Program-made: the position numbers and the translations under genes
Source: Owenia fusiformis
Lineage: Eukaryota
NCBI GenBank assembly: GCA_903813345.2
Contig: CAIIXF020000001.1
Span: 28,768,001-28,832,000, forward strand
Direction of reading: 5' to 3'
Length of the DNA: 64,000 nucleotides
Notes under the pieces: generated by a model
Seen by the model: only the letters and a program-made list of their open reading frames with translations
Database searches by the model: none
What the model was told of the DNA's origin: nothing
Part shown: positions 27,944 to 60,100 of the stretch, piece after piece
Layout: every line of letters starts with the position of its first letter
Numbering within the stretch: the stretch's first letter is position 1

Positions 27944-28077
27944 CTAAATCCCATAATCGCTATTTTACGTTGCTTGGATGGCATGATTGTGTTCCCTAGA
28001 ATAATCAGTAAATAAAAATACTTGAGTTACACCACTGATAAACGTATTCAATAGAATAAATATCTAAAATATGAGAT
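27944..28077 (-). pseudogene. 134-bp duplicate of Rheb exon 1 start and upstream sequence
   Basis: Direct copy of 26483-26616 with 4 substitutions. Encodes MPSKQRKIAIMGF but stops short of the splice donor. Confidence 0.85.
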
Positions 28078-30075: not shown

Positions 30076-30121
<46 letters not shown>

Positions 30122-36100: not shown

Positions 36101-39100
36101 TTCAGAGAGTTGATAACTTGATGACATATACAAATTTCTCTGTACATGAACTTTCATTTATTGCTATGACTTCGTGAATCACAAGTACATGTACATGTAG
36201 AGGCTATCTAGCAAATAGCTCAGTTCCAGTTGATTCAAGCTGTTTGTCTTAAAGAGATGCATTCGTCCTACCATGCAGTTAGTAATCTGGTATTATTGTA
36301 ATTTCAGTGGTTACAAAGGCACAGAGAGAGATTGTCTGATGCACCTGGCAGAACTTCTTGGAGCGAAGTAAGACTTTCACACTTATACGAGTATATGCAA
36401 TAATCAGGATGTTGCTTCCTGATAATATGCTAGATCACAATTTCTGATTTTTTAATTGTATAATATTTATAGGATATCCTATGATTTTGAGGAATATCAT
36501 TTTTATCTACGAGGTGATATTGATATCTGCACGAGAGAGCGAAGCGAACGAGTGCATATATAAATATCACCGAGTAGATTAAAATGATATTCTGAAAAAA
36601 ATCATAGGATGTTCTTATTATCCTACACTTACAAGGAGTGTACTGAATGTATAATATCATTGTAAAATTAATTCCATGCCAAATAGAGTCAATTTGGCGG
36701 GAAATCAACAAGCGGAGTATATCGTCACAATATCCTCCGCATATTGGGTTTTCCGGAGTATATCGTCACGATATCCTCCGCCCGGAGTATATCGTTACGA
36801 TATCCTCCGGATATTCATTTTGCCAATAAATATCAAATTTATTTTTTCATGTTATTATACATTTAGTACACTAAGTGTAGGATAAATAGTATTACCTATG
36901 GAGATTGCAGAAGAAAGAAAATATGTCTGACAGTTGTCTCCCCAAGATTTATCTAAATCTCATTTTACAAATTCTGACCAAAAAGTTGACAAATTGTTCT
37001 AAAATTATTTTGAGCAAATAGATGGATAGGTTCATTCTAAACTGGGTGTAAGGTAGTCTTCCAAGTTCTCAATTGAGCGCAGTTGGTACTTAAGTACCTA
37101 CTTCAGTTGAGACACCATTACCACCAAGTTGAGAAATTGAAATTATGGAAAATTGGGATATTTTTTATTCAGTTTTGGATATTGCAGGGAAATGGGAATA
37201 CAATACAAATGATAGAATAACTGTGATATTTTAGGAGCCAGGAGTACTTTGTGAGGAGGGCTAGTAAAGGTTACCTTGCTACAACACACCTGCTGATCAA
37301 TGAACCAGGCGGCTCCAAGTATGAAGCTGCTAAGAAATGGGGCATTCCAATCGTCACCAACAAGTATGTAATCATTAATTATGTCACTACCACTTTTTTG
37401 TGGACATCAGTTTGTGTTCAGCAGTCGGTGTCTTAACAAATGGCAGATGGTGACATTTTGCATGTTAATGCCTTGTTGAATTAGTTGATGTATTTTTGAA
37501 GCATTTCACCTTCTGAATTTAAAAAAAACTCCGATAGTAATGTAATGAGTGTCCCAAGTTCAGGTACAAATCCAGGTACTCTTATCAATTGTGAATGCTC
37601 TAGCAAATACGATCAGAATTATGAAGAAAAAAATTGAAAAAGGTTTGACTGTATTTGAAGTTTTCTCAGTGCGTTCTTACCCTTGTTAAATGCTTTCTTT
37701 ACAGATGGATATTTGTAGCTGGAAAGACTGGTAAAAAACCACCAGAAGAGAAGTACCATATAGATGCAGAGACTGCTGATCAAAACACTAGTGTTATTGC
37801 AAATAATGTTGCAAACACTTCAACTGCACAAGCGCCTGAAACGCATGTGCAACAAAACAAACAGACCGTAGTATCACACACAGAAAGGACATCGATTACA
37901 ACTACACCTAAACCATCCACACCAAAACCAGACACACACAAGGCAGCCACACCACTAGTAACACCAAAACCTGCCATGCCTAAAGAAGCTACGCCTGTTT
38001 GGGTCTCAAATGCCGAAGCCTCAGATAATCATTTGAAAGATGCACTGAAGAACTCTATTAAACGGCAAATGGTGAAGGAGATTAACTTCAGGACTCCAAA
38101 ACTTGTAAACAGCAGAGTAAAAGTAAGAATATATTGATGTCTATGTAATCAATACAAGATAATGTTTTGATATACTAGTACAGAGATCGTTGAATGATCA
38201 TCCCACTGATTGAAGCTCAGTATAGGGATATAGAGAAACTAACAGTTTTACTATATTCTGCTCAAGAAAGAATTTTCAATATGGCCACCTCATGTAAAAG
38301 TGATGCCATTTTGTAAAAAATCTAATGTTTATACCCAAATATGAGTTGACGTTAAAGTTTAATAAAATTCGTAAAAGTAATTTATAGCATTGATGCATAT
38401 GCTTGGCATCTTACTATTCACACAGTGAATGATCATGCACTCATGTATATTATTATGTATTTTAAGATATTCAACATTTTTTCAGGCCCTGATGAATACA
38501 GAAGGTAGTGGTAAACCATCCTCTCTACTCACTCCCAACCATCTTGCTGGTGTTGAGTCACCTAGTGCTTTCCTAGATCCAAATAAATCATGGTATCCAG
38601 ATTTTGACTTCTCTGTAAGTGTCACTTTCAATTTTAATTTAATTTTATAACCACATTCCATGTATCACGCGGTCCTAACTTTGACCGTTAATTTGACCTA
38701 CCTACTTTTTGACCTACCGGATGTTTGAAAATCAACGATTACGAGTCTCATACTGCACCGTTTTTCTTCAAACTTGTTCCATTCAAAGCATAACAAAAAT
38801 CCCTTTCTGATGGTACATTATTCTCTTAAACAGAGTCCCTACTTCCAGCGGAATTTTGGTCCCCAGCTGTAAGAAGGCCTTCTAACAGCTGGGGACCAAA
38901 ACGCTGCTAGAACGAGGGACTCTTTACAATAAAGCAATGCACCGACAGAAAGGGATTTTTGTTATGCTTTTAATGGTGTAATAGGTTTGAAGAAAAACGG
39001 TGCAGTATGATACTCGCAATCCTTGATTTTGAAGCATCTGGTAGGTCAAAAATTCAAATTAACAGTCGAAGTTAGGACCGCGTGTATATATAGTAATTGT

Positions 39101-42100
39101 CCCTATCTAACAAAATGAAGATTTTTGGGCCTCAGACCTTGATATTCTCATTTCATTGGAATATTCATGAATGTTGGAAATCCCTTGGATATCTTAAGAA
39201 GTCAAATTCATTACATATACATTTACTGGAAGAATGTTCAAATAGTAACCAAACATTATTTCAATTCCAGCTGGAATGGTGTGTATTTTCACATTTGCCT
39301 TTATTGCATGATTTATTCGTATGATTTCAAGTCTAGCTCTCCATTCCTGTTTTGTAGGGTATAATAGACCAGATAGAATCACCAGAAGTCAACAGGAGAA
39401 AGTCTAGTTTGGTGAGTCACATTTTGTACCTGAATCATGAGTGTTGTTAAGAAATTTTAAGTTTCCTCTATCAGCTATGAGTTAAATTGCAATTGAAAGT
39501 GCTATATGAGGAAGGTAAGCTTTACATTTTTTGAGAACTTGTACATGAACTTTAGAATTATGGTTCTGTAGGGACTAGTTCCCCCCTCTGTAGTATTTAC
39601 ATGCCATATTGAATATAGAGGTACTTGGAAAATAGTTGTAATTTAGTCCCTGGAAAAACTAATTGAGAGAGGACAGTCATCCCTGGGGATTGTAATATTA
39701 AACATTCATGTACATGTTCTCTTAAAAATATGTAGCTTATTGACGTCTTGCGCTTATGTTTCATATTCCACATCTTACAGTCAGATGATGAGTTGAAGAC
39801 TTTACTCAAGGAAGCCATGGTGATTGCCCTCAAGAACTCTGAGTTGTCTGATGAGAGTAGTGCTGATGATGAATCTGCTGAACAGTCAGCTAAACAAGTA
39901 AGTACAATAGAGCCTTCAAACCTTGTGAATGTCCATTTTGGAGACCCAATGGTATATAAGTATATAAAGAATCACCAAATATTTATAGAGCACTTTCCTG
40001 ATAAATCTTACTAATATGAATAGAAATAAAGAATGGGTTGTAATAGTTTAATAATGATTCTCACTGCTATCCCTAGCCATCATACATATCTTGAGGTTTG
40101 AATGCTTGATCTATTTGACACTTGTACATGTATTTACAGGCTAAAGTCCAGTCTCCAGTAGCTCCCTTACATGGTGTAGTAATAGGAGTGAGTAAGAAAC
40201 TAACAGCCAGACAAGCTGATTTTAACAGTATTGCTAATGCCCTTGGGGCTGATTACAGGTGGACTTACGATACCTCCTGTACCCACTTCATATACCAGGT
40301 AAGTAGGATATAAGCCTTCTTTTACTTCATATTCAAACATGACCGTGCTCTATTCGAATTTCTCAACCAATCAGAATGCAGCATAGCCAATATAGAACGT
40401 TCTCTAATTCTCCATAGATGCACGACCATGCTCTATTCAATCTGCAATTTGCATTGTTTTGAGTGACGTCACATCTCAGCTGCACATCTGGGGCTCTGTC
40501 CGGGGATAGCTGTTCTTTTTTACTCCCTCCGTAGCTACTGTAACTATTTAACTATGGCTGACTTCAGTTTGCATACACCGTATAAAATCTAAAACGGGGA
40601 GTAAAATAGAACAGCCCAAACAAATTCTAAAAGTTTTTCCGGCCGACTTCAGAATCTTGACAGCATGCGTATTCTTCCTTCATGCCCGTTCCACAGACAC
40701 GGCTTTTACTAATTTTTATGTTTGAATCGGAATAAATAATGATAGGCCATTCAATATGGTGAAATTCAGCACTCGTTGGACAGAATGTTAGTACAAATGC
40801 ACTCACCTTCGGTTCGTGCTTTGTACAACATTCTGTCCAACTCGTGCTGAATTTCACCATATTGAATGGCCTATCATTATTTATTCCTTAATTATTCCAG
40901 TCCAAACATGAATGCTTACATATTGCTTGATGTGCAATTGCATCGTAATGTAACATCCATTATGAAGTAAAAATATAAACCTAACTATAACTATAAATTA
41001 GATAGAAAGTGAAAGTTGAAATTTTCAGACTTGTCCTTTTTTATCTGTTATAGTTTATATATTCCTGATATCTTTATCTGAAAATTGTTTTCTTTTAGAG
41101 CAATCGCTCCAATGACATGACTAAAGAGTTCCGGCTAGCAAAAGAACAGGCCAAGCATATTGTCTCTCCACACTGGCTCACTGTGGTAAGTTGTCCAGAA
41201 TGTTATTACTTTTTAACTTTGGTTGATCGCTACAGATCTATCATAATACTGTTAAATCAATGTTATTATAAAAATTTCAGTTAAGCTGATGTATTAAAAA
41301 AGATTTTTTTCAAAGATATTTAGCAATCTCATATTTCAGTGGTAAGCTCATAAGAAAAGGATTGCATTGATTTATGTTTATTTTGACTTGCAATTATGCT
41401 TATAACAACTATGGTTGTACGTTATATTTGTATGTTGGAAAGTGTTTTATTTTTGTACTATTGTATTTTGTAATCATGTATTTGCAGTGTCAAGAACAGA
41501 ATGCCAGAGTTGACGAATCCTTGTTTCCACACAACTACAATCCAAACATGACCTTGGTAAGTGAAATTCTACACAATACAATTCTAGAATTTTCCATATA
41601 TGGAAACTTCACATCATTATGGCATTAATCATGCAGCAGATTGTATAATCCCTTGCCAGTTAGTTTTAGTTTCACTTATTTAGTTTCTTTTTGCATATTT
41701 TGTCACATTACATCTTGTTACATGTGGATAAGCAGGTAGGTGGTGGTCCCTCTTGATTTTGATGTATCTTCGAGTTAATAAATGTGTGTGTAAATGTCTG
41801 TATGAATGGAATTTTACCTCTGGTTTGTTTGAGTATGAGCATCTGTTCCCTCTTGCCAGAGTGGCTGATGAAATAACCTTTTTTGGTGTTGTCAAGTTGG
41901 CTGAGTTGTCCTGAGCAATGAACATGTTGAAATAGGGGCTGTTCCTGTAACCATTAGTTGAATACTTGTGACTCGTGAGCTCCTTGCGTTTATTCATTTA
42001 AATAAAACGGAATCACTCAATCACTCTCAATTGTTCAATCTAACTGAATGAGCACAATAGTGACATATTTTTTCTATATTTGGGGTGACATGATATTGTC

Positions 42101-45100
42101 ATCCAGGTCTATGAATTATTCTGAATAAAACATTAAAACTTTATTTGTGTTTATATTGTTATGTTCAAGAAGCCAGTCAGACCTTATTATTATCCCACCA
42201 AACAAAGTTTGGTATTTAGTCCATACACTCGTCCATGTCATGTATCGTGTATTACCTTTCAGTTTAATTAAAACTTATGAACGTCAGTCTTACCTGAAAA
42301 TAGGTTTCGTTAAGTTTTTTATTATTAACACGTTTTTGTTCTTGAAAAAGTTGGACTTTGAAATAATTATTTCAAAATGTTTCAACAACCATGCTTTGTC
42401 CTTTTTCTACAAATTCAAAAAGAAATATTAAGTAAGCAGATTTTGATATATCAATCAATTGATGAATCAACCTATCAATGGCAATGTCAATTGAATTAAA
42501 TACACAAAACCATGTTTATAATTATCCCACTGCCTATTGCCATTGGCCTATTACTCCATGAGAGTCACTTCATATTTATATGCTGGTTAACCAAGATAAT
42601 TATTATCCTATTTTTATCCAGAACAAAAATTTATTTTGCCACTGGCCTTATCTGCCATGAGAATCACTTAATATTCATATGTTAATTAATCAATAGTCAA
42701 AGTGGCTCATCCTTTTTTGATCGGTATATATGACACATGTTACCAAGCAGAAATCATCTTCACTTGAACAGTCGGATCATACACACAACAATGTTGTCTG
42801 CTGCTGTCTTCATTGCTGGACTCGCCACTGTCTTCGCCAGTGGCTATGGATGTAAGTTTAACATTTTGTAATTATCTCGGATATACTTGATATTGCTTAA
42901 ATGATGTATCTCTTATAACTTTGCTTAACAATGATGTAACTTAATTTTTCCATTTATCAGTTGTCCATTTTAAATTGTTTGATTTTTATCTTTAACTTTC
43001 AGCTCGTTGCTATGACTGCAACTATGCCCCATCTGGTTACACCAAGCAGGTGAACTACTGGACCAGAGTGTCCTCCAATGCTGGATACGCTGGATGTGCC
43101 CTCTCCAAATATGGAGATGCAGAGACCCTTGACAAATGGAGCTGTGCCTCAGGAGAGTGCTTCATCCGTAAAGACCCCAACGGTCTTGTGTACCGTGGCT
43201 GTGCCAACAAGGAGAATCTTCCCCTTGGAGTGTCCACCTACAAACAGTGCGCCAACCAGGCTGGTTCTCTGTGGTACTTCTGCAAGGGAGATCTCTGCAA
43301 CAGCAAACAGCTTGGTGACTATGGAGTCTGTGGATACAAGCCATCTTACCATGCCTCTTACCCAAGTATGTATAACCTTTTTTTCTGTCTTTTAAAAACA
43401 CAGAATTACACCCTGTCAGGACTGATGTGATAAAAAGAAGCTATTTATGATGTTACAAATTTTAATCATTCTTGAAATCAAACAAATGATACATTTCATA
43501 TTGTAGGCCCCTGTGATGGAAAATGCTACAACAACCCAAGTGGTCTTTTCGCTGACAAATATAACAAGAATGGTTTCATCCAATGCGGATGTGACTACAA
43601 ATATGGCAAGGCCTGTATCTGCTGCAAACCTTTCTTCATGAAGTGCCCATATGGTAAAGATTTTCTTTATTTCTATAATTGACCTTTTCCTCAAAACATT
43701 AGATCCATCTTATGTGTATGTTATTTAAGAGTTATATCCTGTATCATAATTCATTGAATGAACTATTTCAAATCTATTAATGATTTAATATTTGTAGGAA
43801 CTGCTTTCGATGATAGCACCAAAGTGTGCAGCAAAGCTGCTTACAGTGCCCCAGCATACAAAGCCCCCAAACCAGCATACAAAGCCCCTAAGCAAGCATA
43901 CAAAGCCCCTGAGCCAGAATACAAAGCCCATGAGCCAGTATATCATGCCCCAGCTTATGGATACCAGGCACCATCCTATGGATACAATCAATACAATAAT
44001 CACTATTAAATGACATTAGTTTACTTTATGATGTGCCAAACTGCATTGATTAAAAAATAAAGAAAAGTTACATATACAGATTATTTGTGTGTTTTACTTC
44101 TTATATGCTTGCAGTTTCATTGATAATTTGCGATATAGGGGCTTACGTATATGCACACATTTTAGGAGAAAAGGTGTGGAGTACTTACTCTGGTCAATTA
44201 ATACATTGTTTTAGTTTGTGGGTTTGACAAGAAATATTTATCACATGATAATGTGCCCTACCTATTCAAACTCCACGCTTGATTTTGTTTGGTTTCCTTG
44301 TAATCCTGTGTATTTGCTAGCAGAAATAGAAAAGGCTAAAGAAAAGCATTTGACTTTTCAAACAAAAGCATGTATAACTGATATGAAACAACAGTTTCGC
44401 TTGTTGAGGCATGAAAAGACAATCAATGAGTATTTCTAAAACCTGTATCTAAATATCATATGCTGTAGATCTACATAAATCCATTATCGCCCAACTACAG
44501 TTTAGTCCGTAATTTTTTTACCATTGCATGCATACACATACTCTCGAGTAGCAGAATATTTGGACAGAATGTTTTTTTGAAATCAAATGATCGAACTAAC
44601 ACTCATTAAACAAATATCCTAATATCTAGACAGAATGTCCGTAATTTATTTAATGATTATTGGATAATGAAAATACTTCTTGTGTCATTCTAGTCTATTT
44701 CCAAGAAAACTCCTGCAAGGACAAGACTGTCCAGACGGTCAATGCGGCAGCCTATCAAAGAAAAACTTACAATAGAAAATAGCACCAAACAAAATGACTT
44801 GAGGTTAACAGAAGACAATACAATGAAAAATACTAAATTGAATGAATTAACACTTGTGACCAAATCAACAGATGTGGATGTAAAATGTGATGAAAAGACT
44901 AATAGTATAACTGATAAAGACACTACTAAAAGTGAGAAAGTGAATAATGATGTTGAAATGTCCACAAAAGAATCAAATGTATCTAATCAAGAGACTAAAA
45001 AGAGTGATAGAGATCTATGTGGGGCTGTTCCACATGATGAAAGTGCTAATGATGGCTTTGATATGGACACCACACAGAGTGATGATGAAGCTTTGGCACA

Positions 45101-48100
45101 GGCAGCAGCTGAGGTTACCAACCAAGGCCCTGAAACACAGGTATGTGATAGAAAATAAGTAAAAGTGAAATGACTAGGTGCAAAGGGCACATTTAAAATC
45201 AAAAACTTCATGATTATGCATGGTATATCTACTAAAAAATAATTTAATTTCTAAAATAGTTTTTTATCATACTCACATTGTGCATACCTCCTAGAAAATA
45301 ATGAATCCACAATTGCTATTATACACTAGTGTCTGTATATTGTTATCTATTTCCAGGAGATGAAAACAAACAGCGCTTCCCTAGAAATGCGAGATGAAAT
45401 AACTAAACAACTAGAGCATGTAATGGCCTCTGTAGCTAAGTAAGCAATCCAGGGTGGACCAAACGAGGGATACCTTAATTATTTAAGGATTTTAAAAAAA
45501 TGTCAACCCAAATCATGCATTATTTTCTCCCAAAAACAGAAAAGATTGTGCTCTAGAAGGAATTTGGAGGCAAATATTGTCTGTATTTCATAAGAAATCA
45601 TGCATAAAACAACATTTTGGCTTTTCATTCTGTTAGGTGCTATATTCAGCAATTAAAGACACATTCAAATCATCAATAGAAAAATAAAAGATACATAACT
45701 GAATCAAAATTCTTAAGTGATGTATACTTGTATTTATCTTTAGAATGGATACATAAACATACTAACATTGTACTTTCAGTAAACCTGCTAGAAAAAGAAA
45801 CAGTCGCATAAACTGTAAGTTATCTCTTAATGTTGACAACTGATCAATCGATCAATAAGATATATTTGAAACATACTAAATCGGCAGCTAAACTGCCTAA
45901 TTCTTAAATAAATGAGATACTGGGATCTCTCACTTGGGAAAGAAAAACCCCCATATCAGTCAGTTGTACTGGCATTTCCGTTTCATTTGTTTTTGAAAAA
46001 ACTGTAAAAAAGTCCTGTTCTTTATCATGTTTTCTCCCAGATTATCTTTATATGGTTTCCTATCATTATAATAGTATATGCTTAATAGTTAATACACTAA
46101 TGCCATGTTTTGTTATCACAGCTGCTAATTTGAATTCCTCTGGGGAGAATCCTGCTGACAGAAGCCGTCCTTCTTCAAGGACCAGGGGCATTGTGACATA
46201 CTCATGTAAGTACATGTATAGCAATTAATATAAAGCACCTAGACTATCAGCTAGACAAGGGACAGCAATTAAAATGGCCGTTGTCTTTTCTTACTGCTAA
46301 AGAAATATACATGTACATGTATAGCTAAGGAGTGTGAGATGATAAAGTGAAAAGAGCAATTTAAGTGCAGATATAACCATTAATTAGGGACTTTGTGACA
46401 TCAATGTCTCTCATCTACTTCACACATTTGCTGAAATGGAAATCAGTGGTTTTAAATTCTGATGGACCAGAAATGTCTTAATTCTGTTAAATATGTTTGC
46501 ATTCGGTGATCACTGATAATATTGAATGTAGAACTATAATGATGAAATAATACAATATGTCATATCACAGTTTGATTACACATTATATTTTGCTAGTTAC
46601 CTGTGTGATTATATGGATAATATTAGTATGGCATGTGGCCGACTTGTCTTACAAACATATTCACATTGACAGTGTTAAACCACACAACAAAAGTGCACAT
46701 AAGGAAGACACAGAGAGGATAGCTGTACTTGTTTACTTGGACTACAAACAAGGTGGAAACTTTGCGATAGAGTTCTGTACTTTCTTGTATGCATCATGGA
46801 AGTATGTGATGAGCCACTCATACCTTACTGATTATGTCAGATTCAAGAAAGGGGTCTCAAGGAGGTGTAGTAATCACACTCTCATTGATTTGATTGTTTT
46901 CTGTCACCCCACAACATGTGCTTCTTTACCTACAGACTGTCTCAAGTGGAGCACACTAACACAGTTTGATCTCAAATGGATGATTAACTCATCAAACTGT
47001 ATGTATCGACCATTGCCCCCATTGACTCAAAACCCAAATTATCCAGCCAAGTATGAATACCTTAACACGTTCTCATTTCTACAACATATGCATCTTGGGG
47101 ATGTTTTAATGCGATATGATTGGATATTACGTTCAGACACAGATGTATTTTTGACACCAACACTTTTAAAATGGCGGCCTAAATATAACCTTGTCACAGG
47201 AGAGGGTGGCTATGGTGATTTGTTCAACAGACAACGATTGAAAAATATTTCCCTTAAATTGAATCTAACTCACAGAGGTGTGACAAACTTTGGAAGTACT
47301 TGGTATGGACGTCCAAAGCAATTTCTTATCGCTGCTAAGCTAACACTGAATATCTCAAGATATCTGTATGAGAATGAATTTAAGCCAAACTTGTCAGGTC
47401 TGGAGGTGATATTCACTGAAGGGACTGACAGTAATGGGAAATGGCCCATGTGGTGGAGACCTGTATCAACAATGTATGGGTCAGAACTAGCACTTAATCA
47501 TCTCATCCCAGGAATCAATCAATCCTACAAAGCTATTGATCTCTTAGATGCATTCAGCTCTCGGAGGAAACCAGCGCTTCTTTACCCACACATCCATTGT
47601 TGGCACGGAGAAGCAGAATTCTCAAAGCATCGATTCATTAATAATATCACATCTCTGTTGCATCTTGATAAAGAGCTCAAATCTGATGATGTAAAAAATC
47701 TGATAACTGACAACATTGGTGATAAGAATGCAAGAGACATGCTAGCTTGGGAGTACTGTATGTACATTGCATGGAATGCTGTTGGCAACCACCTTCCTCA
47801 TGTTGTGACAGCCATCTTGAAAATTGGATAGATATATTATGATATCAGATTATTTAAAAAATAAATCAAAAATTCAAAAAATCAGTCAACTATGGTGCTT
47901 TCTTTATTCTGCTTGATGATATATGGCTACACTGTGTTTGAAGCTAGAGGCAATTAATTGTAAGGCTTCACTACTATACATACATGTAGTGAATGATTAA
48001 CACAACTGAAATATGTATTTTAGTTGATATGGATAGTGTAGTTAACTGTAATTTTACATTCATTGGTTACTTGTTAAACAGACTTTGATATGTCCAGTTA

Positions 48101-51100
48101 TTTTAACATAATACAAATTTCAAAATCCAGGTAATTTTGAAAACTGCAATTTTAGATATTTCTTGTCATCACAATCTCAGAAATATTGCACATTGCATTC
48201 AATCTTTTCAACTGAGGTTATGTGGTATCTCTTTCTAGATTCTTTTTTTTGGTTGCCATGTTTAATTCCAGCAACCATTTTAAATTGTTTTCATCACTTT
48301 TGCAGTGGCATTTCGAAGAAAGCCATTGAAGAGATTCATTTCTTTTTAAAGATGCTACTTAGTATGTTAAACTCGAGTAGACCTGACAGGTCTAGAAGTG
48401 ATATGGGTGTTTTCCTCAAGTATATTAAGTGTGATATTTATTGTTGTGTGTCAGTGTTTGCAAATGACAAATGCCCTTTTCATATTGCGTGCAAATAATT
48501 GACTTTTTATAAGAATGAATAGTCTTGTATCAGGTCCATGTATATGGAATCTCCCTAGTGAGCTAAATAAGTGAGGTGAATTAAGGTTCAAAGGGGCTTG
48601 ATGTAAGACTACATTATCATATTTGAAACAAAAGTTCTCATGCTTTACATGAGCAATGACTGTATATAATAAACTTAAAAGCATGATGATTTTTTTTATT
48701 ATTGAAATCAATGTAACATATATACAGGTTATAGTGGCTATGACCGCCAAAAGGGTATGTTAATCCTAAGCATAATAATGTTATTGTATATGTTAATGTT
48801 AATCTCATATGTGGATGTTCCAGTGGAGAGGAAGGATAGTGATGGTACAGGTAGACGATCAACAAGGAGCGCAGCAAACGGTGAGTCAATGCAGATTCTA
48901 ATATGATACGTGACATCACAATAGCTAGAACAATTGATTTACTGGTCTATATTGGATTATGTATGACCACTAAAATCCATAAATGCAAATAATTGTGTTT
49001 CTTGTCTATTTATCATATTAGAATCGTAACAAAGACCTCAATTTTATGATTTATGTCAAATATATGACCTCAAATTTTATTCTGGCCTTTGCCAAAGACC
49101 TCAATTGCTGTGCGATTTCAGTCTCTTAACAATGAACAGAATAAAATTTTCGGTCATATATTACAACATGAATCATAATATCTCAGTCTTTATTCCTTAA
49201 ATAATATAATTAATCATAGTTGCAATAGAAGGACGTTTTTGTTAAAAAAAAAAAAAAGCATGGGGCATTAATAAAACACTTATATCAATACACACATATA
49301 CATTGAATGAACATACAAATGCAAGTCTTGGACATTAGTGTTTATAGTTTTCATGTCTAATATATTCAAGAGTGATATATGGCATTTTACTGATGGTTTA
49401 ATGAATAATACCTGATTTTTGCTTTCAGCTCGAGCTATAGAGACTGATACAGAGGCCTCTCAGAGGGTCCAGTTTACATGGGATGATCCAAGAGCACGGT
49501 GAGTGGCAAGCTAATGTTAGATTATGAAACTTATGGACAATGTATGGTAAAACTTGTGAATTGAAACACCTCTGTAAGTGGGGCACATCAGTGGAAAGGG
49601 AACACCGTTTAGATCCCATGACCAATCTACTTAATGTTAAATGAACCTCTGTAAGTGATACACCTTCCAAGAGGAACCCTTTTTAGAGGTTTATCACACA
49701 GGTTTTACTGTATTTACTTACTGTATTACTGTAGTGACTTATTTACAATCAAGCCTTTAATGATTAAATGACTAATTGTGCACATGTTTTTTTTTTACTT
49801 GTTATACTTCCATTGTTCAACAAATAAAATAGAAAATGTACATGTATGCATATTTTATCCCAGCAAACACAGTATGACAGGGATAGGGAATAACTAATGC
49901 TAAGCTAATAAAAGCTCTTTTAAAGGAGTATTCCTTGCCGGACCATTTCTCTCTTAATATGGTAGCTATAACTATATAGGCACTTTCAATATAAGCAAAA
50001 CATGGGAAAATGTTTTGATATGGTCAATATTGACAATTTAAAAATGAACTGATAATTTCAAGTGGGCTGCTATCTTTTAATATTTCAGACAGGAAGTAAT
50101 GTCATCGACTCTCTATTTTACATTTAGCATTTTTAAAAGCAGGTATTTAGGACTTAACTAGCTGAAGTTGAAGTTGACAAGCCCTGAAAATCTATTTGAA
50201 TAGAAACTAAGAACCACTTGTCTGGAAGTTACTTTGTGCTACATTCTAAATTGTTATGGGCAATGTTATACAATTTGAGAGTTGATGACATCACTTCATG
50301 GGTGAAATCTTAAAAGATGGCACCCTACTAGGAATGAATTGACCATATCAAAACATTTTGCCATGTTTTGCATAATATGGAAAGTATATACATAAGGGTT
50401 ATGTACTGGGAGGTTTTGGATATGGGGTTTATCCAGAGGGAGATATGTATATCTACCTGAGGGACCATAGGGACCGAAGGTAGATGTGCATATCTCACGA
50501 GGGATGAGCCCTATATCCAAACCGACCGTACATAACTGCTTTATCCTATACCAAGTAGAGTTTTCTTTCAATTTTTTCAATTTTTTCTCAATTTTTTCTG
50601 TTTTTTTTATCGTACCTAACAAAAGGTACGATATTGTAGTCAGCTTGACGGGCGGCGGGCGGGTGGACGGGCGGCGGGCGGGTGGGCGGGCGGGCGGCGT
50701 CTCACTTTTCAGCTTGTCTACAGGTTTCCAGCTAAACCATTTGAGGGATTCATCTGAAATTTTCAGGGATGTTTCTACATATCAACGTCAAGAACTGATT
50801 AGTTTTTGGGCATTCTGGGTAAATTTTAAGGTGGCCATTTTGGATTTTCCGTCCTAAAATCTTCACTTTCAAGACTTGTCTACAGGTTTCCAGCCAAACC
50901 ATTTGAGGGATTCATCTGAAATTTTCAGGGATGTTTCTACATATCAACGTCAAGAACTGATTAGTTTTTGGGCATTCTGGGTAAATTTTAAGGCGGCCAT
51001 TTTGGATTTTCCGTCCTAAAATCTTCACTTTCAAGACTTGTCTACAGGTTTTCAGCCAAACCATTTGAGGGATTCATCTGAAATTTTCAGGGATGTTTCT

Positions 51101-54100
51101 ACATATCAACGCCAAGAACTGATTAGTTTTTGGGCATTCTGGTTAAATTTTAATGTGGCCATTTTGGATTTTCTGTCCTAAAATCTTCACTTTCAAGACT
51201 TGTCTACAGATTTTCAGCCAAACCATTTGAGGGATTCATCTGAAATTTTCAGGGATGTTTCTACATATCAACGTCAAGAACTGATTGGTTTTTGGGCATT
51301 CTGGGTAAATTTTAAGGTGGCCATTTTGGATTTTCCGTCCTAAATTCTTCACTTTCAAGACTTGTCTACAGGTTTCCAGCCAAACCGTTCAAATTTTTAC
51401 ATATGTTACACAGTGATAAGTTCTAGAGCTGATTAACTTTTCTGCGGCCATCTTGCTTTCTTGGTCAACAAGACCACAATGCTGTGTTTTAGGTATGATA
51501 TTGTTCACGTCTATGCCTTGTTCTTTTTTTGAATTTGTTATTTTTTCACATTTTTTCTTTTTTTTCAATTTTTCTTATTTCTCCAAATTTTTTTATCGAA
51601 GTGGGAAGATATGCCCTGGAGTGGGAGATATGGAGGTTCAGGATATGGAACCTCAAAATCAGGATAAGGGATATATCTTACCAACTTATCTCCCTAAAAC
51701 TCTACTTGGCATAGGATAAAACCTCATAACTACCATATCAGGAGAGAAATCATCTGGCAAGGAATATTCCTTTAAGGAGTTACCAGTTCTAGTTAAATTT
51801 AAATATTACATAATATTATATTTTAATTTCTTAACACACATTCTCTTTTTTAACATTGACGCTCTACAGCATATACTTTCATAACAGTATTTTCATAACA
51901 ACATTACAAAACATAAAGTAACGCAAAATAATGTAATGTAACGTAACGTAACATAACATAACAGAATAACAGAATTCGTAGGTAACAACATATTAGAGTC
52001 TATTATATGATGGTGTAATTTCCGTTCTCAATCTGGTTGGTCCATGTGATGTAAATATATCCTGTATTTTCAGTACAGAATCAGTAAAGTCAAATTTTGA
52101 TAAGGTTGTTATAAGCTCTTATATAGTGAACTGTTATAGCTATTTAATTGCACACGTGTCTGTCTTTATGAAAGTCCCAGACTTCTTAGTTCCCCATAAG
52201 CAAAATATGCAGTCTATAGAAAGCCACCTGCGTCAATGGAACTGAATGCCTTCAGATTTAGTAGCAGCATCTCTTACATATGTTTGTAAGGCATAATCAG
52301 GAGGGCCTTGTTGTGGTTTAAAGGATTCTTGATCTGATGATATAACAGTCTTCATAATAGCTTGTAACCCTGTCAGTCTTAATAGTACACTACTGTGGTC
52401 ACTTATATGGCCCCCTATAATAACACTATCCATATCCTCAAGGAGTATCCCAACGGGAAATACAAATGGGTTCTCTATCATCCAACTTCTAACTATTGGG
52501 TACTTTTTTGAAAGATCATTGTGAATTTTTATAGGGCCACTTACATACACTATTCTTGGTTTCGGTGTTGTGCAGAATACTACGACATTAAATGTATAGT
52601 ACCTCACACTTGTAGCTTTTTTATACAGTGTTGCATGCGTAATAGAGATATAATATGAGCCTTTGTACTTTTCCATTGGGGTCCCACCCCTTAAAGGAGT
52701 TTTAACATTGCTAAATTCTGCTGTTAGGTTTCCACGAAGTATTTCAAACTCACAATCGCAAGTGTCAGCCCCTAATTGACATTTAAGGATACGGAGTGGA
52801 TCAAAACCATGCACAAAGTAAAGTTCATTGTTGTCGATGTATGGTATCCAGTGTTTGTCCCTTGTTTCTGGTTTTGGCTTGGAACCATGGATTCGAGGGC
52901 GTATCAACACATTGGATTCTATATCCATGATGAATGTAAAATCGCGCATACTGTCATGTGATGATATATAGCCTGTGTTAAATGTCATTAATAAACGGTT
53001 CCTAAACGTAAAAAGCCTTGGTTCAATCGGGCCATCCCCTAAATGCCATTTTGGGGTTACCATACCAACAAGGGATCCATTGGTCAACGGCTTCATGAAT
53101 TTATTGAATTGTTGCGTGAATAAAGTGTTATCCTGAAACCTATTTGCAGGCCATTTTTGGGCTTTTTCATAAGCTTCGTTCTGCAGCCATATCCTTAGTA
53201 CCGTAAATAGTCGTCCTCTGAACCATGAAATAGCTGGGCTATTGGCGTAAAGTTTATTGTCACGTCCATCCAGGATGTACATCTTTCTTGCTGACTGTTC
53301 CACTCTTGGTGAGAATGAGTACACAAGAGATGTTGAGACAACATATGAGACACTTAATGCTATGCCTTTATCTGAAAATACAGCACCATCCAATTCAAAA
53401 TGATGCTTAAATGTTTCATTCAGTATCAGTTTAGATTGTTCCTCATGGTTAATAGCTTTATCACTTCTTGTGTTGTTTCTTGACGTGGAATCTCCACATT
53501 GTTTCTCGTGGTATATAAAGAACCGTTCAGTTGACTTTGTGAATAACAATCCACAAAGCACAATAAGCATTAATCCTAACAATTTCTTCTTTGAAATCAT
53601 CTTTGCACACTATTTAGACATGGTCTCAAATATCTCTCACAATAGTTGAAGCTTGGCAAAGTCCATATGTTCCAATATAATAAGTTAATTTGATCTGTCA
53701 CTTGTGGAAATAACAAAACATTTCCGATCTCATCTAAAGAAAAGTATCAAAAATATTAATACATGTATTTTATTATGCTCTATATCCTCAGAGGTTGATG
53801 TTAAAAGTCCCATAAAAAGCCATAAACTTGTTCTATGACTGTTATAATGTAAAATAACTGCAGTATTACTGTACATTTTCTAGATTTTTCCAGTCATATT
53901 ATTGGTTGGTATTTTAATGTCAAATGAACCTAAACTGCTCTCAGTTGTATTATTACATAACATATGTACTACCTGAATAATAACCCCTGTGGTATATCTG
54001 GCTGTGTATATTTTTAGTCACAATTTTAGGTCAACCTTGCCAAACTCAGTCAGTGTAAAATTACATTAAAATTGTGCTTTCATAAGGCCCTAATCTTTTA

Positions 54101-57100
54101 AGGTGCCATGGAAGTTAACAGGAAATGACAAAACAAAAAGTGACTTGCTGGATTTTGAATTTTTTTAACCAAGATAACAAAGTTCTGTTTTGACCTCCAG
54201 TCAGTTTAACTAGTTCCAAACAGAACTCTGTTATCTTGGTTCAAAAGATTTTCAAAATCCAACATAGTTTTGTCACTTTTTGTTTTGTAATTATGTCACC
54301 ACCAAAAGTGGTGACATATTGTTATGGTCTCCGTTTTTTTTTGCGACGGCGGTTGGCGTCCGGCGGTTGGCGTCCGGCGGTTGGCGTCCGGCGGTTGGCG
54401 TCCGGCGTCTGTAACAATTTCTTACAACTTCCTATAACTTAACAAATACTGTTTAGACTGACTTCAATTTTTTTCTAAATCATCTACATGTTCTCAGAAG
54501 TTCAAATCTGACTTTAGATTTGACATTTGACCTTCAATGACCTTCTCAAGGTCAAAAAGGTCTTTTTTCAACTTGCTTCACATTGACTAAATTTTTTTTC
54601 AAAATCATCTACATGTTCTCAGAAATTCAAATCTGACTTTAGATTTGACATTTGACCTTCAAATCTGACTTTAGATTTGACATTTGACCTTCAATGACCT
54701 TCTCAAGGTCAAAAAAGGTCAAAAAGGTCTGTTTTCAACTTGCTTCAAATTGACTAAAAAATTTTTTCAAAATCATCTACGTGTTCTCAGAAATTCAAAT
54801 CTGACTTAAGATTTGACATTTGACCTTCAATGACCTTCTCAAGGTCAAAAAAGGTCAAAAAGGTATTTTTTCAACTTGCTTCAAATTGACTAAATTTTTT
54901 TTTCAAAATCATCTACATGTTCTCAGAAATTCAAATCTGACTTTAGATTTGACATTTGACTCATCGAAGTGTTCTCAGAAATTCAAATCTGACTTTAGAT
55001 TTGACTTAGGATTTGACATTTGACCTTCAATGACCTTCTCAAAGTCAAAAAAGGTCAAAAAGGTCTTTTTTCATCTTGCTTCAAATTGACTTAATTTTTT
55101 TTCAAAATCATCTACATGTTCTCAGAAATTCAAATCTGACTTAAGATTTGACTTTAGATTTGACATTTGACCTTCAAGGTCTTTTTTCAACTTGCTTCAA
55201 ATTGACTAAATCTTTTTTTCAAAATCATCTACATGTTCTCAGAAATTCAAATCTGACTTTAGATTTGACATTTGACCTTCAATGACCTTCTCAATGTCAA
55301 AATAGGTCAAAAAGGTATTTTTTCAACTTGCTTCAAATTGACTAATTTTTTTTTCAAAATCATCTACATGTTCTCAGAAATTCAAATCTGACTTTAGATT
55401 TGACATTTGACCTTTAATGACCTTCTCAAGGTCAAAAAAGGTCAAAAAGGTCTGTTTTCAACTTTCAAATTTTTTTTTCAAAATCATCTACATCTTTTCA
55501 GAAGTTCAAATTTGACTTTACAAGTTCTCAGAAATTCAAATCTGACTTAAGTTTGAACTCATAATATTGTGAGCAACTAGGTGGTGACATTTTGTCATGT
55601 TAATGCCTTGTTTCCTGTTAACTTCCATGGCACCTTAAATGAATTTGGATTTATCAGAGTCTTTTTGGTGATTTTGTCTCAAGAACTTCAAGAACATTTT
55701 TTGCTTTTTGCTTTTGTTCACTGAACATGTTGATTAAGATTGTAGTATTAGTTGTTTTTCAGGCCTTGCAAATCTTTCTTCTCACCATTTCTTAAATATT
55801 TTGGCATTCTATTGGAGAAGGAAGTTTTTTTGTCTTTTCTTCTCTTTGTCTTTTTTAAAAATGTTCCCCTGTATTTTTTCCAAAAAACTCCTTCTATTTA
55901 TAAACTGATAAACTGATGTACTGAACACTATCAAGATGTAATAGACTTGAGTCCCCCTCCAAACATATATATGAATGTCATTAAAGGGCTAATAACTGTA
56001 ATTCTCATTCTAAATAACCTTGAAATAGTTTGAATTCATAATTCATAATAATGTGTTTTACGCATTCAATTACTTAGAAATAAACCTTCTTTTTTAATTA
56101 TTGAAGCTTGAAAATAGTGTTCATGTAGAAATTGAATTAATTGCTTTTTAAAATAAAAAAATGTGCAAGTAGTTTTTTTGATTTTGGAACTTGTGATAAT
56201 GCTTACTCATGAAGGTCTGCTTACTGAACCAATATTGTAGAGATATCTGAAAAATAGGATGTACCTTGTGAGCTAGACTGTACTATGTATTAACTACATG
56301 TATGTAGGGATTTCTTGTTAAGGCTTTTATTTGAATTCTCTAAATGCATGTGTATGTGTTTTATAGGATGGAGAAGGAACGTTTGGCTGAGCAGTTGAAT
56401 GGATCCCTCAGTCCAGAACCTCTCTCAGATATACCAGACAATGAAGCAGATGAGTCTATCATAACTTTTAAAGTAATTGATTACCTGTTATTACCATTGC
56501 ACTTATTAATTACCTGTTAATACCATTGCATTTATTCATCCAAGATATCACCTTAGACGCAGGGAACCCATGTGCCTGACCAGCACCCCTGTCCACATTT
56601 GTATATATATTTTCCCTCACCTGTATACCCTTCTATAATGCTGGAAAATGATTGATGAACTCTTATTTTTGTATAGATAAATTCCAAAAAAAAATTGCAC
56701 TTATTATTTTTTTTAATTATCCTGTTATTGAAACTTCAAATGTTATTTTCAAAACAAATCTTTATGAGTTTCATATTGCAAAACAATATTAATGCCACAT
56801 TATTGAATGACCCTTAACACTTCTTATATGTTGATACTTTCAGAATCCTATGAGTTTGACATCCCCCAAGGAGCGCAATGAGGACAGCAATAGTAATAGT
56901 AAAGACAGAATAACAACTCCTGAGCCTCCCCCTCTAGGTACATAACAACTCTATTTAAGACCTATAGTGTTACCCTTTGATACTGCCCTATGGAAATCAT
57001 ATTAGCTTTAATTTAGGATTTCAATGTATGAATAGTGGAGGTATATTGAGTGAAAGTACCTTTGCACGAATTTGATAAACGCCCTGTATATCTAAACATA

Positions 57101-60100
57101 TTATGAGGTTATATAATGATTCTTTCTGTATATCTTGTTTATACTCGAGTTAGTATATTATATATTCACAAGTGAGCGTAGCGAACGAGTGAATATATTA
57201 TATTCTCACGAGAGTATGAAATGCACGATATACAGAATGAACCATTATATAATCTTATTATGCCACTCTAAGTTCAATTACAGTTGATTCGAACACAGTC
57301 ATAACAATTAAAAACCATAAATATCCCATAGCCAACTCAATAATGCTGATGTTGATCTCGAACCATTTATGACGTCACTTGATTCTAGGAAATCATGAAA
57401 ATGTTCATGATTTTTTTATTCATTAGTTCCCAGAATGCACTTCTACAGTGGTATACGCTGGAGTGTATACGGAGGAGTTGTATACGATGACGATATACCA
57501 CTCTCCACTGTATATCGTTGTTATAGACCCATGTTATACAACTGTAATTGGACTTAGAGTGGTATAATAGTAGTTATCACATTGGATTGGCTCACTATGA
57601 GCCTATATCTCAGCTCTTACGTAGAATCAATGGTATAGCCATCATGAAAACTGTAAATAGGTATTGCATGTGAACATTTTGTTCTGAACTACCAAAGTAG
57701 AAATGTTTTTACCTCAAAAAAATTGTTCTGCACCAGATACATTCCTATCCTCAAAAATGTTTCAGTCCATTGAAATATGTGATGTCATAAAAAGAGAACA
57801 ATAGACTGGGGAATCCGTATCTGTCCTACTAATTTACCCCATTAAATGAGCTATGTGAAGTCATTTAACAAAATACAATTGCTGTATCTGGGAATCACAC
57901 ATGTTTATTTGCTAGATACAGAATTTCAACTGGTATCTTTTCTAAGTGTTCTCTAACATCATTTCACTACAGCAGGTTGTTTTCTTGCAAATATTGGGTG
58001 GGATCTTTGGAGATGAAGCACATGTACACCCCCAAAATGCAATCTGATTTTCGAAGCCGTTTCGGTGCAATGGACTGACTAGTCCGGTGGCAAATTTTGG
58101 TGTCAAAAGGTTTCGGTGCCGGAACGGTGTCGAAACAGTGCCGGAACAGCGCTGAATTTTTTCGATGCCAAAACGACGCCGAATTATATTGGCTGTGCAT
58201 AAGGCCCCCAAAATGTGGCATTAGGAGATATAATACAAGAGGTCTAAACAGGTATAAGTGAACTCATAGACCCAAGCTCCCCATTGCTTTATGATGTTTG
58301 TCTCTATACTTTTCCAGCATTCCCTCTACCCAAGAATAGCCACCAGGAGACAGCACAACCTATAGAGCTTATAGAAGAGGAGTCCAGAGATCTCCCACAG
58401 GAGAACATAAAACCAAAGGAGCCACCATTCTTTCTACTTTCTGGCCTGACCCCCGAGGTATGCAAATGAATTTAATTATGAGATAGTTGTAATTTATGAG
58501 ATCATGATGATGTATATGTACTTGCAGTCTTGCAATTTTCTTCCATCAAATTATTTTATATTTTGATAACTTTCGTTAACATTTGCTACCTACATATATT
58601 TGCAGAGATTTATGCAATTATTAGTACATGTATGTTGGACACTAAATTAAAAGTGCCTTGTATTGTTTGTTTTCTGCTAGGAGAGAGATGATTACGGGGC
58701 ATTAGTTGAGCAGATAGGTGGCACTGTATCAGACTCACTGTGCTACGACCCTAGGTGCACACATCTAGTCATAGGTAACAAATGAAACTAAAAGTACTTA
58801 AGTACAATAAAACCTGTGTTAGTGAACACCTTTCTCGATAGAACACTTGTGTTTAATGAACACCACTTCAAGGTTCATTTTATATTAGTGAACACCTACT
58901 CCAGTGAACACTTTTTTGTGGATCCATAGTTGTTCACTATATACAGGTTTTACTGCATAATCTATTCTAAGAATATAAGGAGGGGAGAATGTTTGCATTG
59001 TGATCTCACTTATTGAAAACACAATTAAATCATGTGATGTGATGTGAAAAAATCAGTCCACCCCTGGGAGTTCACCCCAATGGGGAACAAGCCCATGTTA
59101 TGATATTAATTAGTATGAAAATGTATTTTGTGGAAATGTAGCTGTATGATGAAGCTGATATCTGTTTGTTCCTCCTATTCTAGGTCAGCCTACCCGTAAT
59201 GAGAAGTTTCTGTCCTGTGTGGCTGCTGGGAAATGGGTGCTGCACAAGTCTTACCTAGAGGAATGTAGGGAAGCTGGTCACTTTGTAGAGGTATGTGCAC
59301 CTGAACTCCTGAAGTAATATTCACTAGGGTGGAGGTTTATTGAGTCGGAATATGAAGGTTAACAGAGGGCATTGACAGTTATTGACTAAAATAACTGTCA
59401 ATTCAAGTATAATAATAATAACTGTTTATTCAAGTAATATAATTATTATCAAATGTTACATTTACACACTAGATACCCATAGGGGTATATCAGTTCATTA
59501 TCAAAAATTGGAAAAACCATATATTCATTTTCTTCCCATATAGCTGAAGTACAAACAAGAGTACTGAACCTTTTGTGTCAAATGTATTCTCAGCACAAAT
59601 TCTACATTGGCCTAAAGTAGAACGATATATTATATAAAGGTCAAAATGGTTTATCATTATATTTTGTTTAATTATATATGATCATATGTCCACTCCAGGA
59701 GGCAGAACATGAATGGGGGAGTGATAACACTTTAGCACTACTAGCTAACAACCCTAAGGGAGAGCAAGCAAAGAAGTTAGCACGGGCAGCTAAAAGATGG
59801 CGCAATCGATTGCAAGATGAGAATCAGAAAGGGGCATTTAGCGGATGGCGCTCAATTGTATATACCGACACCACTAAAGCTAGTGGCTTCTCTAGGCTAT
59901 TGCAAGCTGGTGGGGCAGAGGTGACAGCGACGAGACCACCATTCACACAACTCAACAATGTCTCACATGCCTTCATGGAGCTACATAAAGTCAATGAAAA
60001 GGTATGTCTTACAATAGGTCCATTGAAGTCAGTTTTACTACATTTAGTAAATGACACAATGAACAATATACATTTATGTGAACAGATGAGGCTGACAGAT

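What the first reader, a model, noticed from the sequence alone, without database searches (positions are those of the whole stretch)
41557..56366. Three unrelated secretory-pathway genes nested in TOPBP1 introns, two on the same strand
Seen: three TOPBP1 introns between BRCT6 and the end of the ATR-activation region each hold a complete gene (42791-44009 +, 46557-47831 +, 52233-53600 -). The two sense genes have their own AATAAA (44056, about 47859), which a TOPBP1 transcript must read through. Established: nested genes are mostly antisense. Inference: use of these sites would truncate TOPBP1 before the WDDP activation motif and BRCT7/8, so high guest expression in secretory cells might shut down host checkpoint function. 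All three guests relate to extracellular glycan or matrix and could form a co-expressed module.
Basis: partly seen in the sequence, partly recalled or inferred. Interest (0 to 1): 0.7.

Follow-up and report, generated by a model that had tools for sequence, protein, structure and literature searches.

The report
Three passenger genes inside TOPBP1 introns
Three real, unrelated genes sit inside introns of a DNA-checkpoint gene in a marine worm, but their sister copies sit inside many other genes too, so this looks like ordinary gene-within-gene scatter and not a switch that shuts the checkpoint off.

Summary
A 40-exon TOPBP1 (28575-60795) carries gene A (four exons, secreted, sense), gene B (DUF7164, sense) and gene C (mannosyl-enzyme-like propeller, antisense) in its three largest introns. 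RNA contigs splice TOPBP1 across A and B, and indirectly across C. The regulatory reading is unsupported. TOPBP1 introns hold 30 sense AATAAA hexamers, 16 of them before A's. No host-guest hybrid joint was listed. Each guest belongs to its own dispersed family, and sister copies lie in unrelated hosts: 11 of 17 A-family loci examined are nested. No other fetched locus holds two of the families. B carries a frameshift allele in 2 of 4 runs. The best reading is independent dispersed duplications tolerated in introns; A has its own conserved TATA and poly(A) signals. Truncation before the WDDP motif is geometrically possible but unobserved, and contigs cannot show 3' ends. The more curious result concerns the A family: dispersed copies have 92-98% identical exons with unalignable introns, and orientation tracks clade (4 of 4 sense against 7 of 7 antisense, post hoc). 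The scan had already noted other nested genes in this genome, including one A paralogue.

The parts
28575..60795 (+). TOPBP1 host gene, 40 coding exons, 1693 aa
41488..41556 (+). TOPBP1 exon 26 (follows the BRCT6 exons), donor of the intron holding A
   Evidence: joined to 44694 in run X8
41557..44693 (+). TOPBP1 intron 26 (3137 nt), holds guest A
42725..42732 (+). TATA-like box of guest A; a similar box lies upstream of the ATG in all 7 four-exon copies
42791..44009 (+). Guest A: exons 42791-42851, 43003-43365, 43507-43653, 43798-44009; 260 aa; signal peptide, Ly6/three-finger-like domain, chitin-binding-type-2-like domain, Tyr/Ala/Pro/Lys tail
44056..44061 (+). AATAAA of guest A with a U-rich downstream stretch; an AATAAA follows the stop in all 7 four-exon copies
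44694..46205 (+). TOPBP1 exons 27-30 (44694-45140, 45357-45439, 45780-45814, 46122-46205)
46206..48823 (+). TOPBP1 intron 30 (2618 nt), holds guest B
   Evidence: skipped in X8 and X9
46557..47831 (+). Guest B: single-exon type II membrane DUF7164 protein, 424 aa, with a conserved DxD; a 5-nt gap at 46905 in contigs of runs X1 and X2
47860..47865 (+). AATAAA behind guest B
   Evidence: B pieces of X8 and X9 end at 47872 and 47848 while X1 runs on to 48144 (weak hint)
48824..49498 (+). TOPBP1 exons 31-32 (48824-48880, 49429-49498); exon 32 carries the WDDP motif (residue 1329)
49499..56366 (+). TOPBP1 intron 32 (6868 nt), holds guest C and two repeat arrays
   Evidence: indirect RNA support
50702..51386 (.). 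162-bp tandem array, 4.2 copies; related arrays occur elsewhere in the genome
52233..53600 (-). Guest C: single-exon type II membrane protein, 455 aa, beta-propeller like GH130 mannoside phosphorylases; weak Pfam BMT hit
53852..54002 (-). Non-coding block upstream of C, about 77% identical in its two nearest paralogues; probable promoter or 5' leader
54548..55520 (.). Array of about 135-bp units; related arrays occur elsewhere in the genome
56367..56472 (+). TOPBP1 exon 33, continues the frame after WDDP

Best explanation
Three independent dispersed duplications landed in TOPBP1 introns and were tolerated. Each guest is one member of its own multi-copy family and is transcribed as its own unit. 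TOPBP1 pre-mRNA splices them out like other intron sequence. Shown: nesting, splicing of the host, family dispersal, purifying selection, and conserved promoter and poly(A) signals for A. Inferred: DNA-level duplication for A (introns and promoter travelled with it); separate arrival times; suppression of the guests' poly(A) sites in the host transcript by fast splicing or U1 protection (established knowledge, recalled); and host and guests active mostly in different cells.
For: Families: 10 matches for B, 18 for C and 41 exon matches for A in G000 (lower bounds). A family: 11 of 17 loci examined lie between exons of another gene. Pfam gives consecutive profile positions on both sides for the CCDC93 and TALPID3 hosts. 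Pfam on one side plus motif continuity supports the kinase, kynureninase, EFR3, PEX10-like and PXA hosts. The DEAH-helicase, TPGS2-like and nucleoside-phosphorylase-like names are recalled. C family: the window plus 4 of 11 other loci look nested. B family: the window plus 1 of 9 others (ASC channel, Pfam on both sides). No fetched paralogue stretch holds two of the three families (20 stretches, 40). dN/dS against nearest paralogues is 0.04-0.08 for A exon 2 and 0.16-0.18 for C; B alleles show 16 synonymous and 11 non-synonymous changes among 27 listed sites. Two A paralogues share a 2.2-kb unit with introns 75-84% identical. Spliced host contigs bridge A and B. In fly and mammals nested pairs are common and mostly uncorrelated in expression (PMC3814207, PMC11694760; passages read).
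Against: Three guests in one 32-kb gene is still a dense case, and I did not compute its genome-wide rarity. A is a multi-exon sense guest in a normally essential host, the class that is depleted in fly (PMC3814207). All 4 nested copies of A's clade are sense, which neutrality does not predict. A's AATAAA has the second-strongest U-rich downstream score of 31 sites, so leak is plausible. Transcription of this A copy is not shown and C was not tested. No related species could be examined.
Confidence: 0.72

Rival explanations
1. Guest-driven truncation switch. High transcription of A or B in secretory cells makes TOPBP1 end at or before the guest's poly(A) site. The product keeps BRCT0-6 but lacks the ATR-activating motif and BRCT7/8, which relaxes the checkpoint.
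For: The geometry fits: stops at residues 1099 and 1299, WDDP at 1329. The mechanism exists in mammals (PMC11694760 passages; PMC3192792 abstract). The ATR-activating region is needed for ATR signalling but seems dispensable for CMG assembly (PMC8651625 passages), so such a product could be functional. A's site has a strong downstream element and is conserved in position across 7 copies.
Against: There are 30 sense intronic AATAAA in this host, 16 before A's. Spliced host contigs bridge both guests in runs that also cover B. Splicing exon 26 into A exon 2 gives an early stop. Clade-mates of A sit sense in a kinase, a PXA protein and a TPGS2-like gene with no shared checkpoint logic. B has a frameshift allele in 2 of 4 runs.
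Confidence: 0.08
2. A, B and C are a co-expressed glycan/matrix module that uses shared regulation inside TOPBP1.
For: All three enter the secretory pathway. A has a chitin-binding-like domain, B a conserved DxD and C a mannosyl-enzyme-like fold.
Against: The families never co-occur in the 60 other paralogue stretches fetched. Distances to nearest paralogues differ. A's upstream region is most like that of a copy on another chromosome (z 26.9) and C's is shared with its own paralogues. Nested pairs are usually not co-expressed (PMC3814207, PMC11694760).
Confidence: 0.07
3. Nesting is biased, not neutral. Copies of these families insert into, or survive better in, introns of broadly active housekeeping genes because of open chromatin, and clade-specific features set the orientation.
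For: 11 of 17 A loci are nested, mostly in housekeeping-type hosts. Orientation is 4 of 4 sense in the four-exon clade and 7 of 7 antisense in the five-exon clades (Fisher p 0.003, post hoc). The sense clade has one intron fewer, as sense guests tend to in fly (PMC3814207).
Against: A symmetric automated test gave 12 of 32 guest loci against 4 of 20 random 10-kb stretches (p 0.23), and 9 of 32 against 2 of 20 at a stricter score (p 0.17). The orientation split was noticed after the fact in 11 cases. A shared duplication unit lies well inside its host intron and has a non-nested twin.
Confidence: 0.12
4. Misassembly, or the flanking exons belong to separate genes.
For: The junction over C was not observed directly.
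Against: One open 1693-aa frame with canonical introns; RNA joints across A and B; X8 record 20 runs on past exon 32; DNA-like contigs of X1 cross from exon 30 into intron 30.
Confidence: 0.01

Closest known systems
Host/nested gene pairs of Drosophila and mammals (PMC3814207; PMC11694760)
   Same: Small genes wholly inside introns of a large, broadly needed host; origin by duplication; both orientations occur.
   Different: Three guests from three families in one host; one sense guest has four exons, the class depleted in essential fly hosts.
Nested-gene-linked intronic polyadenylation at imprinted mammalian loci, and transcriptional interference by nested genes and L1 (PMC11694760 passages; PMC3192792 abstract)
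   Same: A sense intronic transcription unit inside a host whose 3' part carries key domains.
   Different: There the truncated host RNAs and their dependence on guest activity were shown, and the paper places the premature site upstream of the guest. Here no truncated RNA was seen.
GH130 mannoside phosphorylases and fungal BMT beta-mannosyltransferases (guest C)
   Same: Beta-propeller model (pLDDT 89) matches GH130 structures at E about 1e-8 and TM about 0.5; Pfam BMT E 1.3e-5.
   Different: About 11% identity, BMT score below the curated cut-off, animal type II membrane protein; activity untested.
DUF7164 family (guest B)
   Same: Pfam score 405 bits over almost the whole model; invariant DxD.
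   Different: The family has no tested function that I found; glycosyltransferase activity is an inference from DxD, topology and GT2-fused relatives.
Ly6/three-finger (QVR, DUF7622) plus CBM14 chitin-binding proteins (guest A)
   Same: Signal peptide, cysteine pattern, weak Pfam and Atlas hits.
   Different: All hits are below cut-off; the only relative found outside this species is a Lingula protein at 61% over exon 2.
Interlocus gene conversion confined to exons (PMC3966223 passages)
   Same: Exons far more alike than introns among A paralogues.
   Different: Here it would act between single copies on different chromosomes over exons of 150-360 nt, while the review cites much longer identity for efficient unlinked conversion in mice.

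Membership tests
TOPBP1 orthologue (host) | BRCT0 and multiple BRCT domains with a C-terminal BRCT7/8 pair | tested here: met
   Pfam hits on single exons; exon 38 against human TOPBP1 E 2.5e-15
TOPBP1 orthologue (host) | ATR-activating tryptophan motif between BRCT6 and BRCT7 | tested here: met
   WDDP at 1329; best PDB match is human TOPBP1, but only E 0.69 on 22 residues. The role of this tryptophan is recalled and seen in search listings.
Host/nested gene pair | Guest lies wholly inside one host intron | tested here: met
Host/nested gene pair | Host exons on both sides are joined in RNA | tested here: met
   Direct for A (1 of 4 runs) and B (2 of 4 runs, two studies); indirect for C
Host/nested gene pair | Guest is a constrained, intact gene | tested here: met
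   Open frames; dN/dS 0.04-0.18; a frameshift allele of B also exists
Host/nested gene pair | Guest is transcribed | tested here: inconclusive
   B is covered in the two runs that show splicing; cover on A exons 2-3 is paralogue-like; C lay outside the laid stretch
Nested-gene-driven intronic polyadenylation | Host transcripts end at an intronic site at or before the guest | tested here: inconclusive
   Contigs cannot show 3' ends; spliced host forms bridge both guests
Nested-gene-driven intronic polyadenylation | Truncation depends on guest transcription | not testable with these tools
   needs perturbation or single-cell long reads
Co-regulated gene module | Members stay together in other copies | tested here: not met
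   0 of 60 fetched paralogue stretches hold two families
Co-regulated gene module | Shared expression domain | not testable with these tools
   contig depth cannot rank genes
Retrogene (B, C) | An intron-containing parent gene exists | tested here: inconclusive
   Full-length matches in G000 lie in single long open frames; no parent seen, and the lists are lower bounds
DUF7164 (B) | Pfam score above cut-off over the model | tested here: met
   405 bits against 27
BMT beta-mannosyltransferase (C) | Pfam score above cut-off | tested here: not met
   24.5 bits against 28.3
BMT / GH130-like propeller (C) | Beta-propeller fold of mannosyl enzymes | tested here: met
   Foldseek top hits are GH130, TM about 0.5; catalytic residues not compared
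Ly6/three-finger and CBM14 (A) | Profile score above cut-off | tested here: inconclusive
   QVR E 0.008, DUF7622 E 0.0008 on exon 2; CBM_14 E 0.07 on one paralogue of 5 proteins; Atlas 0.86, a lead only

The most novel reading that the evidence does not exclude
One clade of a highly expressed chitin-binding matrix gene has spread in sense orientation into introns of housekeeping genes (TOPBP1, an LRRK-like kinase, a PXA protein, a TPGS2-like gene), is kept uniform by exon-limited conversion between chromosomes, and acts as a cell-type-specific terminator of its hosts. In bristle- or tube-secreting cells it would yield a TOPBP1 that still loads replication factors but cannot activate ATR.
Probability: 0.06. 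Interest if true: 0.78.

Novelty: new member of a known kind. Interest (0 to 1): 0.3.

Why it matters
As it stands this is a dense but ordinary host/nested arrangement, and it shows that an essential checkpoint gene can read through a four-exon sense gene with its own promoter and poly(A) signal. If the truncation were real, it would be a natural way to separate the replication and ATR functions of TOPBP1 by cell type. The A family may matter more: about 20 intron-bearing copies scattered through housekeeping genes, with near-identical exons and unrelated introns, would be a clean test case for conversion between unlinked genes and for selection on nested-gene orientation.

Tried and rejected
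No run on record as RNA was listed for the stretch; all 12 were guesses with small shares. X1 and X2 gave pieces that cross exon-intron borders and no host splice joints, and X1 has loose ends that I recall as transposase adapter, so I treated both as DNA-like. No cover on A exon 1 in any of 4 runs, and no cover between exon 30 and 46388 in X8 or X9 (hand arithmetic on bin depths): blanks, not used as evidence. No host-to-guest joint among the 15 of 21 joints shown: also a blank. Single-sequence fold of C failed (pLDDT 33) and was redone with an alignment; B and A were not folded. PDB sequence searches with the B and C profiles, with A, and with two TPGS2-like exons found nothing. Enrichment of nesting over random stretches was not significant. 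Whole-intron transposition as the cause of the orientation pattern was rejected because a shared 2.2-kb unit lies inside its host intron and its twin is not nested. No terminal repeat or clear target duplication was seen at that unit's ends. The 105-aa minus frame at 41683-41997 gave only a weak unrelated Pfam hit. Candidate hosts rejected: the P450 next to one B copy and the DUF2340 gene next to one A copy end before the guest; the peroxiredoxin appears to start head-to-head. Flanks of three A loci (C9 cluster at 25.67 Mb, C9 cluster at 19.68 Mb, C11 at 34.6 Mb) were not followed far enough to settle their status. Paper searches found nothing on DUF7164, on this protein family in bristles or on TOPBP1 intronic polyadenylation as a topic (listing only); the library lacks most subscription papers, and no supplements were read.
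Full report
Verdict. The three nested genes are real and the coordinates are right. The proposed checkpoint switch and the co-expressed module have no support in what I could test, though the switch is not excluded. The organism is an annelid: paralogues of the guests are named Owenia fusiformis by their sources.

Host. I built a 40-exon model from 28575 to 60795 that gives one open frame of 1693 aa with GT-AG introns. Single exons hit TopBP1_BRCT0, BRCT and BRCT_TopB1_SLF1 in Pfam. Exon 38 matches human TOPBP1 structures at E 2.5e-15, and the 22-residue WDDP exon has human TOPBP1 as its best, weak match (E 0.69). Median intron length is 340 nt; the three longest (3137, 2618, 6868) are the three that hold guests. 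WDDP is at residue 1329. Ending the frame in intron 26 or 30 would give 1099 or 1299 residues. Intron 32, with C, falls just after the motif.

Guests. A has four exons and 260 aa and equals the public protein P0121. It has a signal peptide, a Ly6/three-finger-like domain (QVR E 0.008, DUF7622 E 0.0008), a cysteine domain that resembles chitin-binding type 2 (Atlas 0.86, a lead only; CBM_14 E 0.07 in 1 of 5 proteins) and a tail rich in Tyr, Ala, Pro and Lys. The chitin-binding reading came from earlier finding e1-7276731 on a paralogue. The only relative outside the species among 5 hits is from Lingula, so a role in bristles or another chitin structure is an inference. B is a single-exon type II membrane protein of DUF7164 (405 bits) with an invariant DxD in 39 aligned sequences (39 of 97 hits used); glycosyltransferase activity is inferred. 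C is a single-exon type II membrane protein. Its model from 21 sequences (21 of 23 hits; pLDDT 89) matches GH130 mannoside phosphorylases best (E about 1e-8, TM about 0.5), and Pfam BMT scores below cut-off.

RNA. I laid 4 of 12 listed runs on 41000-50500. All are contigs and their RNA status is a guess, but X8 and X9 show GT-AG joints at the predicted places. X8 skips the A intron; X8 and X9, from two studies, skip the B intron. X8 record 20 is 1489 nt long, of which about 505 lie on exons 27-32, and depth in the bin with exon 32 fits 70 nt of cover, so it leaves the stretch at the donor of intron 32 (hand arithmetic). B is covered in all four runs. The deep cover on A exons 2-3 in X8 carries letters of the chromosome 9 copies, so transcription of this copy is not shown. 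C was outside the stretch. X1 and X2 look DNA-like; both carry a 5-nt gap at 46905 that stops B at codon 136, while X8 and X9 do not. Among 27 listed coding variants of B, 16 are synonymous and 11 are not, pN/pS 0.18; only 40 of 108 variant rows were shown.

Poly(A) signals. TOPBP1 introns hold 30 sense AATAAA in 27,138 nt, spread over 19 of 39 introns, and 16 lie before A's. A hexamer alone therefore means little. A's site is probably genuine: it ranks second of 31 for U-rich downstream sequence, and all 7 four-exon copies have a TATA-like box before the ATG and an AATAAA after the stop. It does not show that the host ever ends there.

Families. In G000, B has 10 matches, C 18 and A 41 exon matches (lower bounds). 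I fetched flanks and predicted exons with a model trained on the window; it recovered 35 exact TOPBP1 exons among 42 plus-strand calls, a test on its own training gene. Of 17 A loci on 7 chromosomes, 11 are nested: TOPBP1, an LRRK-like kinase, a PXA protein and a TPGS2-like gene in sense; CCDC93, TALPID3, EFR3, kynureninase, a PEX10-like gene, a DEAH helicase and a nucleoside-phosphorylase-like gene in antisense. Pfam supports both sides for CCDC93 and TALPID3 and one side for five more; three names are recalled. Six loci are intergenic or unsettled, and weaker matches on C2 and C5 were not examined. For C, 4 of 11 other loci look nested (SART3-like, PHF10-like, HAUS4 and one host named only from recall). 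For B, 1 of 9 is clearly nested (ASC channel) and one more may be. Other multi-guest hosts appear: the SART3-like host holds a second open unit, and the host of another C copy seems to hold two cyclase genes. No fetched stretch holds two of the three families. A symmetric test against random 10-kb stretches gave 12 of 32 against 4 of 20 (p 0.23) and 9 of 32 against 2 of 20 (p 0.17), so enrichment is not shown.

Age and route. Distances to nearest paralogues are dS 0.28-0.50 for A, 0.75-0.84 for C and saturated for B, with dN/dS of 0.04-0.08 and 0.16-0.18 for A and C. These do not date the insertions exactly, and conversion may lower A's figure, but nothing points to joint arrival. Two A paralogues on chromosomes 1 and 5 share a 2.2-kb unit with introns 75-84% identical, which shows DNA-level duplication. 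For B and C the route is open, since no intron-bearing parent was seen.

Two oddities of the A family. First, dispersed copies within a clade have exons 89-98% identical and four-fold sites 65-96% identical (saturation about 0.37), yet most introns align no better than shuffles. In one pair on chromosomes 7 and 8 identity is 97% in exons and ends 8-12 nt into the introns. A few introns keep weak similarity (z 4-9.5). Exon-limited conversion between chromosomes fits best, at about 0.6 by my judgement; strong codon selection or an assembly effect are the alternatives. Second, the 4 nested copies of the four-exon clade are all sense and the 7 nested five-exon copies all antisense (p 0.003). This was noticed after the fact in few cases.

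Comparison with what is known. In fly nearly 10% of genes are in nested structures, 71% antisense; sense guests have fewer introns, and pairs are not co-expressed more than random (PMC3814207; abstract start and passages). In mouse and human over a tenth of genes host another, orientation is only slightly biased, most pairs are uncorrelated, and premature host polyadenylation linked to a nested gene is known at two imprinted loci (PMC11694760; passages). Interference by nested genes was shown with minigenes (PMC3192792; abstract and outline). The ATR-activating region is needed for ATR signalling and seems dispensable for CMG assembly (PMC8651625; passages). Conversion is usually reported for exons and is rarer between chromosomes (PMC3966223; passages). 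DNA-based gene moves may outnumber retroposition about 5 to 1 in bilaterians (PMC13689697; passages). Passages of PMC9977687 and PMC13468113 added nothing on this locus. Earlier notes of this scan list many nested genes in this genome, sense and antisense, including a two-guest host; they are unchecked and are not counted as support.

Scores. Best explanation 0.72; biased insertion or retention 0.12; truncation switch 0.08; module 0.07; misassembly 0.01. Novelty: new member of a known kind. Interest 0.30, much of it from the A-family pattern. Conservation in related species, 3' ends and cell types could not be examined here.

Noticed in passing
A-family loci L038, L039, L043/L064, L081, L083-L086, L089, L090 and window 42791-44009: Nested orientation tracks clade: 4 of 4 sense in the four-exon clade, 7 of 7 antisense in the five-exon clades (p 0.003, post hoc).
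   Followed up: partly
L086 against L088 and L085; window 43003-43653 against L038-L043: Dispersed A copies have exons up to 98% identical while introns mostly do not align; identity ends 8-12 nt into the intron. Suggests exon-limited conversion between chromosomes.
   Followed up: partly
window 43003-43365: A's clade lacks the intron that splits the Ly6-like domain in the other 13 copies examined.
   Followed up: partly
window 46905: A 5-nt gap in guest B in contigs of two runs from two studies, giving a stop at codon 136: a likely null allele in the population.
   Followed up: partly
window 26483-26616 and 27944-28077, minus strand: The first coding exon of a Ras-family gene (Rheb-like, name recalled) is present twice, 97% identical over 134 nt, just upstream of TOPBP1.
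   Followed up: no
window 4755-7855: A gene with a coiled-coil part and a C-terminal autophagy-receptor-type zinc finger (Pfam Zn-C2H2_12, E 2.8e-9).
   Followed up: no
L044 903-1616 with L075 and L076: The SART3-like host of the nearest C paralogue holds a second, plus-strand open unit in the same region: another multi-guest host.
   Followed up: no
L073 583-1232 and 6203-6853: Two cyclase-family genes lie antisense between exons of what seems to be the same host that holds another C paralogue.
   Followed up: no
L071 466-702 and L054 9231-9572: An exostosin-like gene (name recalled) has two similar versions of a late exon in tandem, possibly alternative exons.
   Followed up: no
guest B relatives: DUF7164 relatives are patchy: Hydra, one nematode, rotifers, a green alga, a bacterium and many unnamed records, some fused to a GT2 domain. 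Origin not tested.
   Followed up: no
window 50702-51386 and 54548-55520: Two tandem arrays flank guest C; related arrays occur beside other loci.
   Followed up: no
G000 C7 at 34.85 Mb (L004) and C11 at 9.78 Mb (L057): One B paralogue has an internal stop and one C paralogue is broken, in line with birth and death in both families.
   Followed up: no
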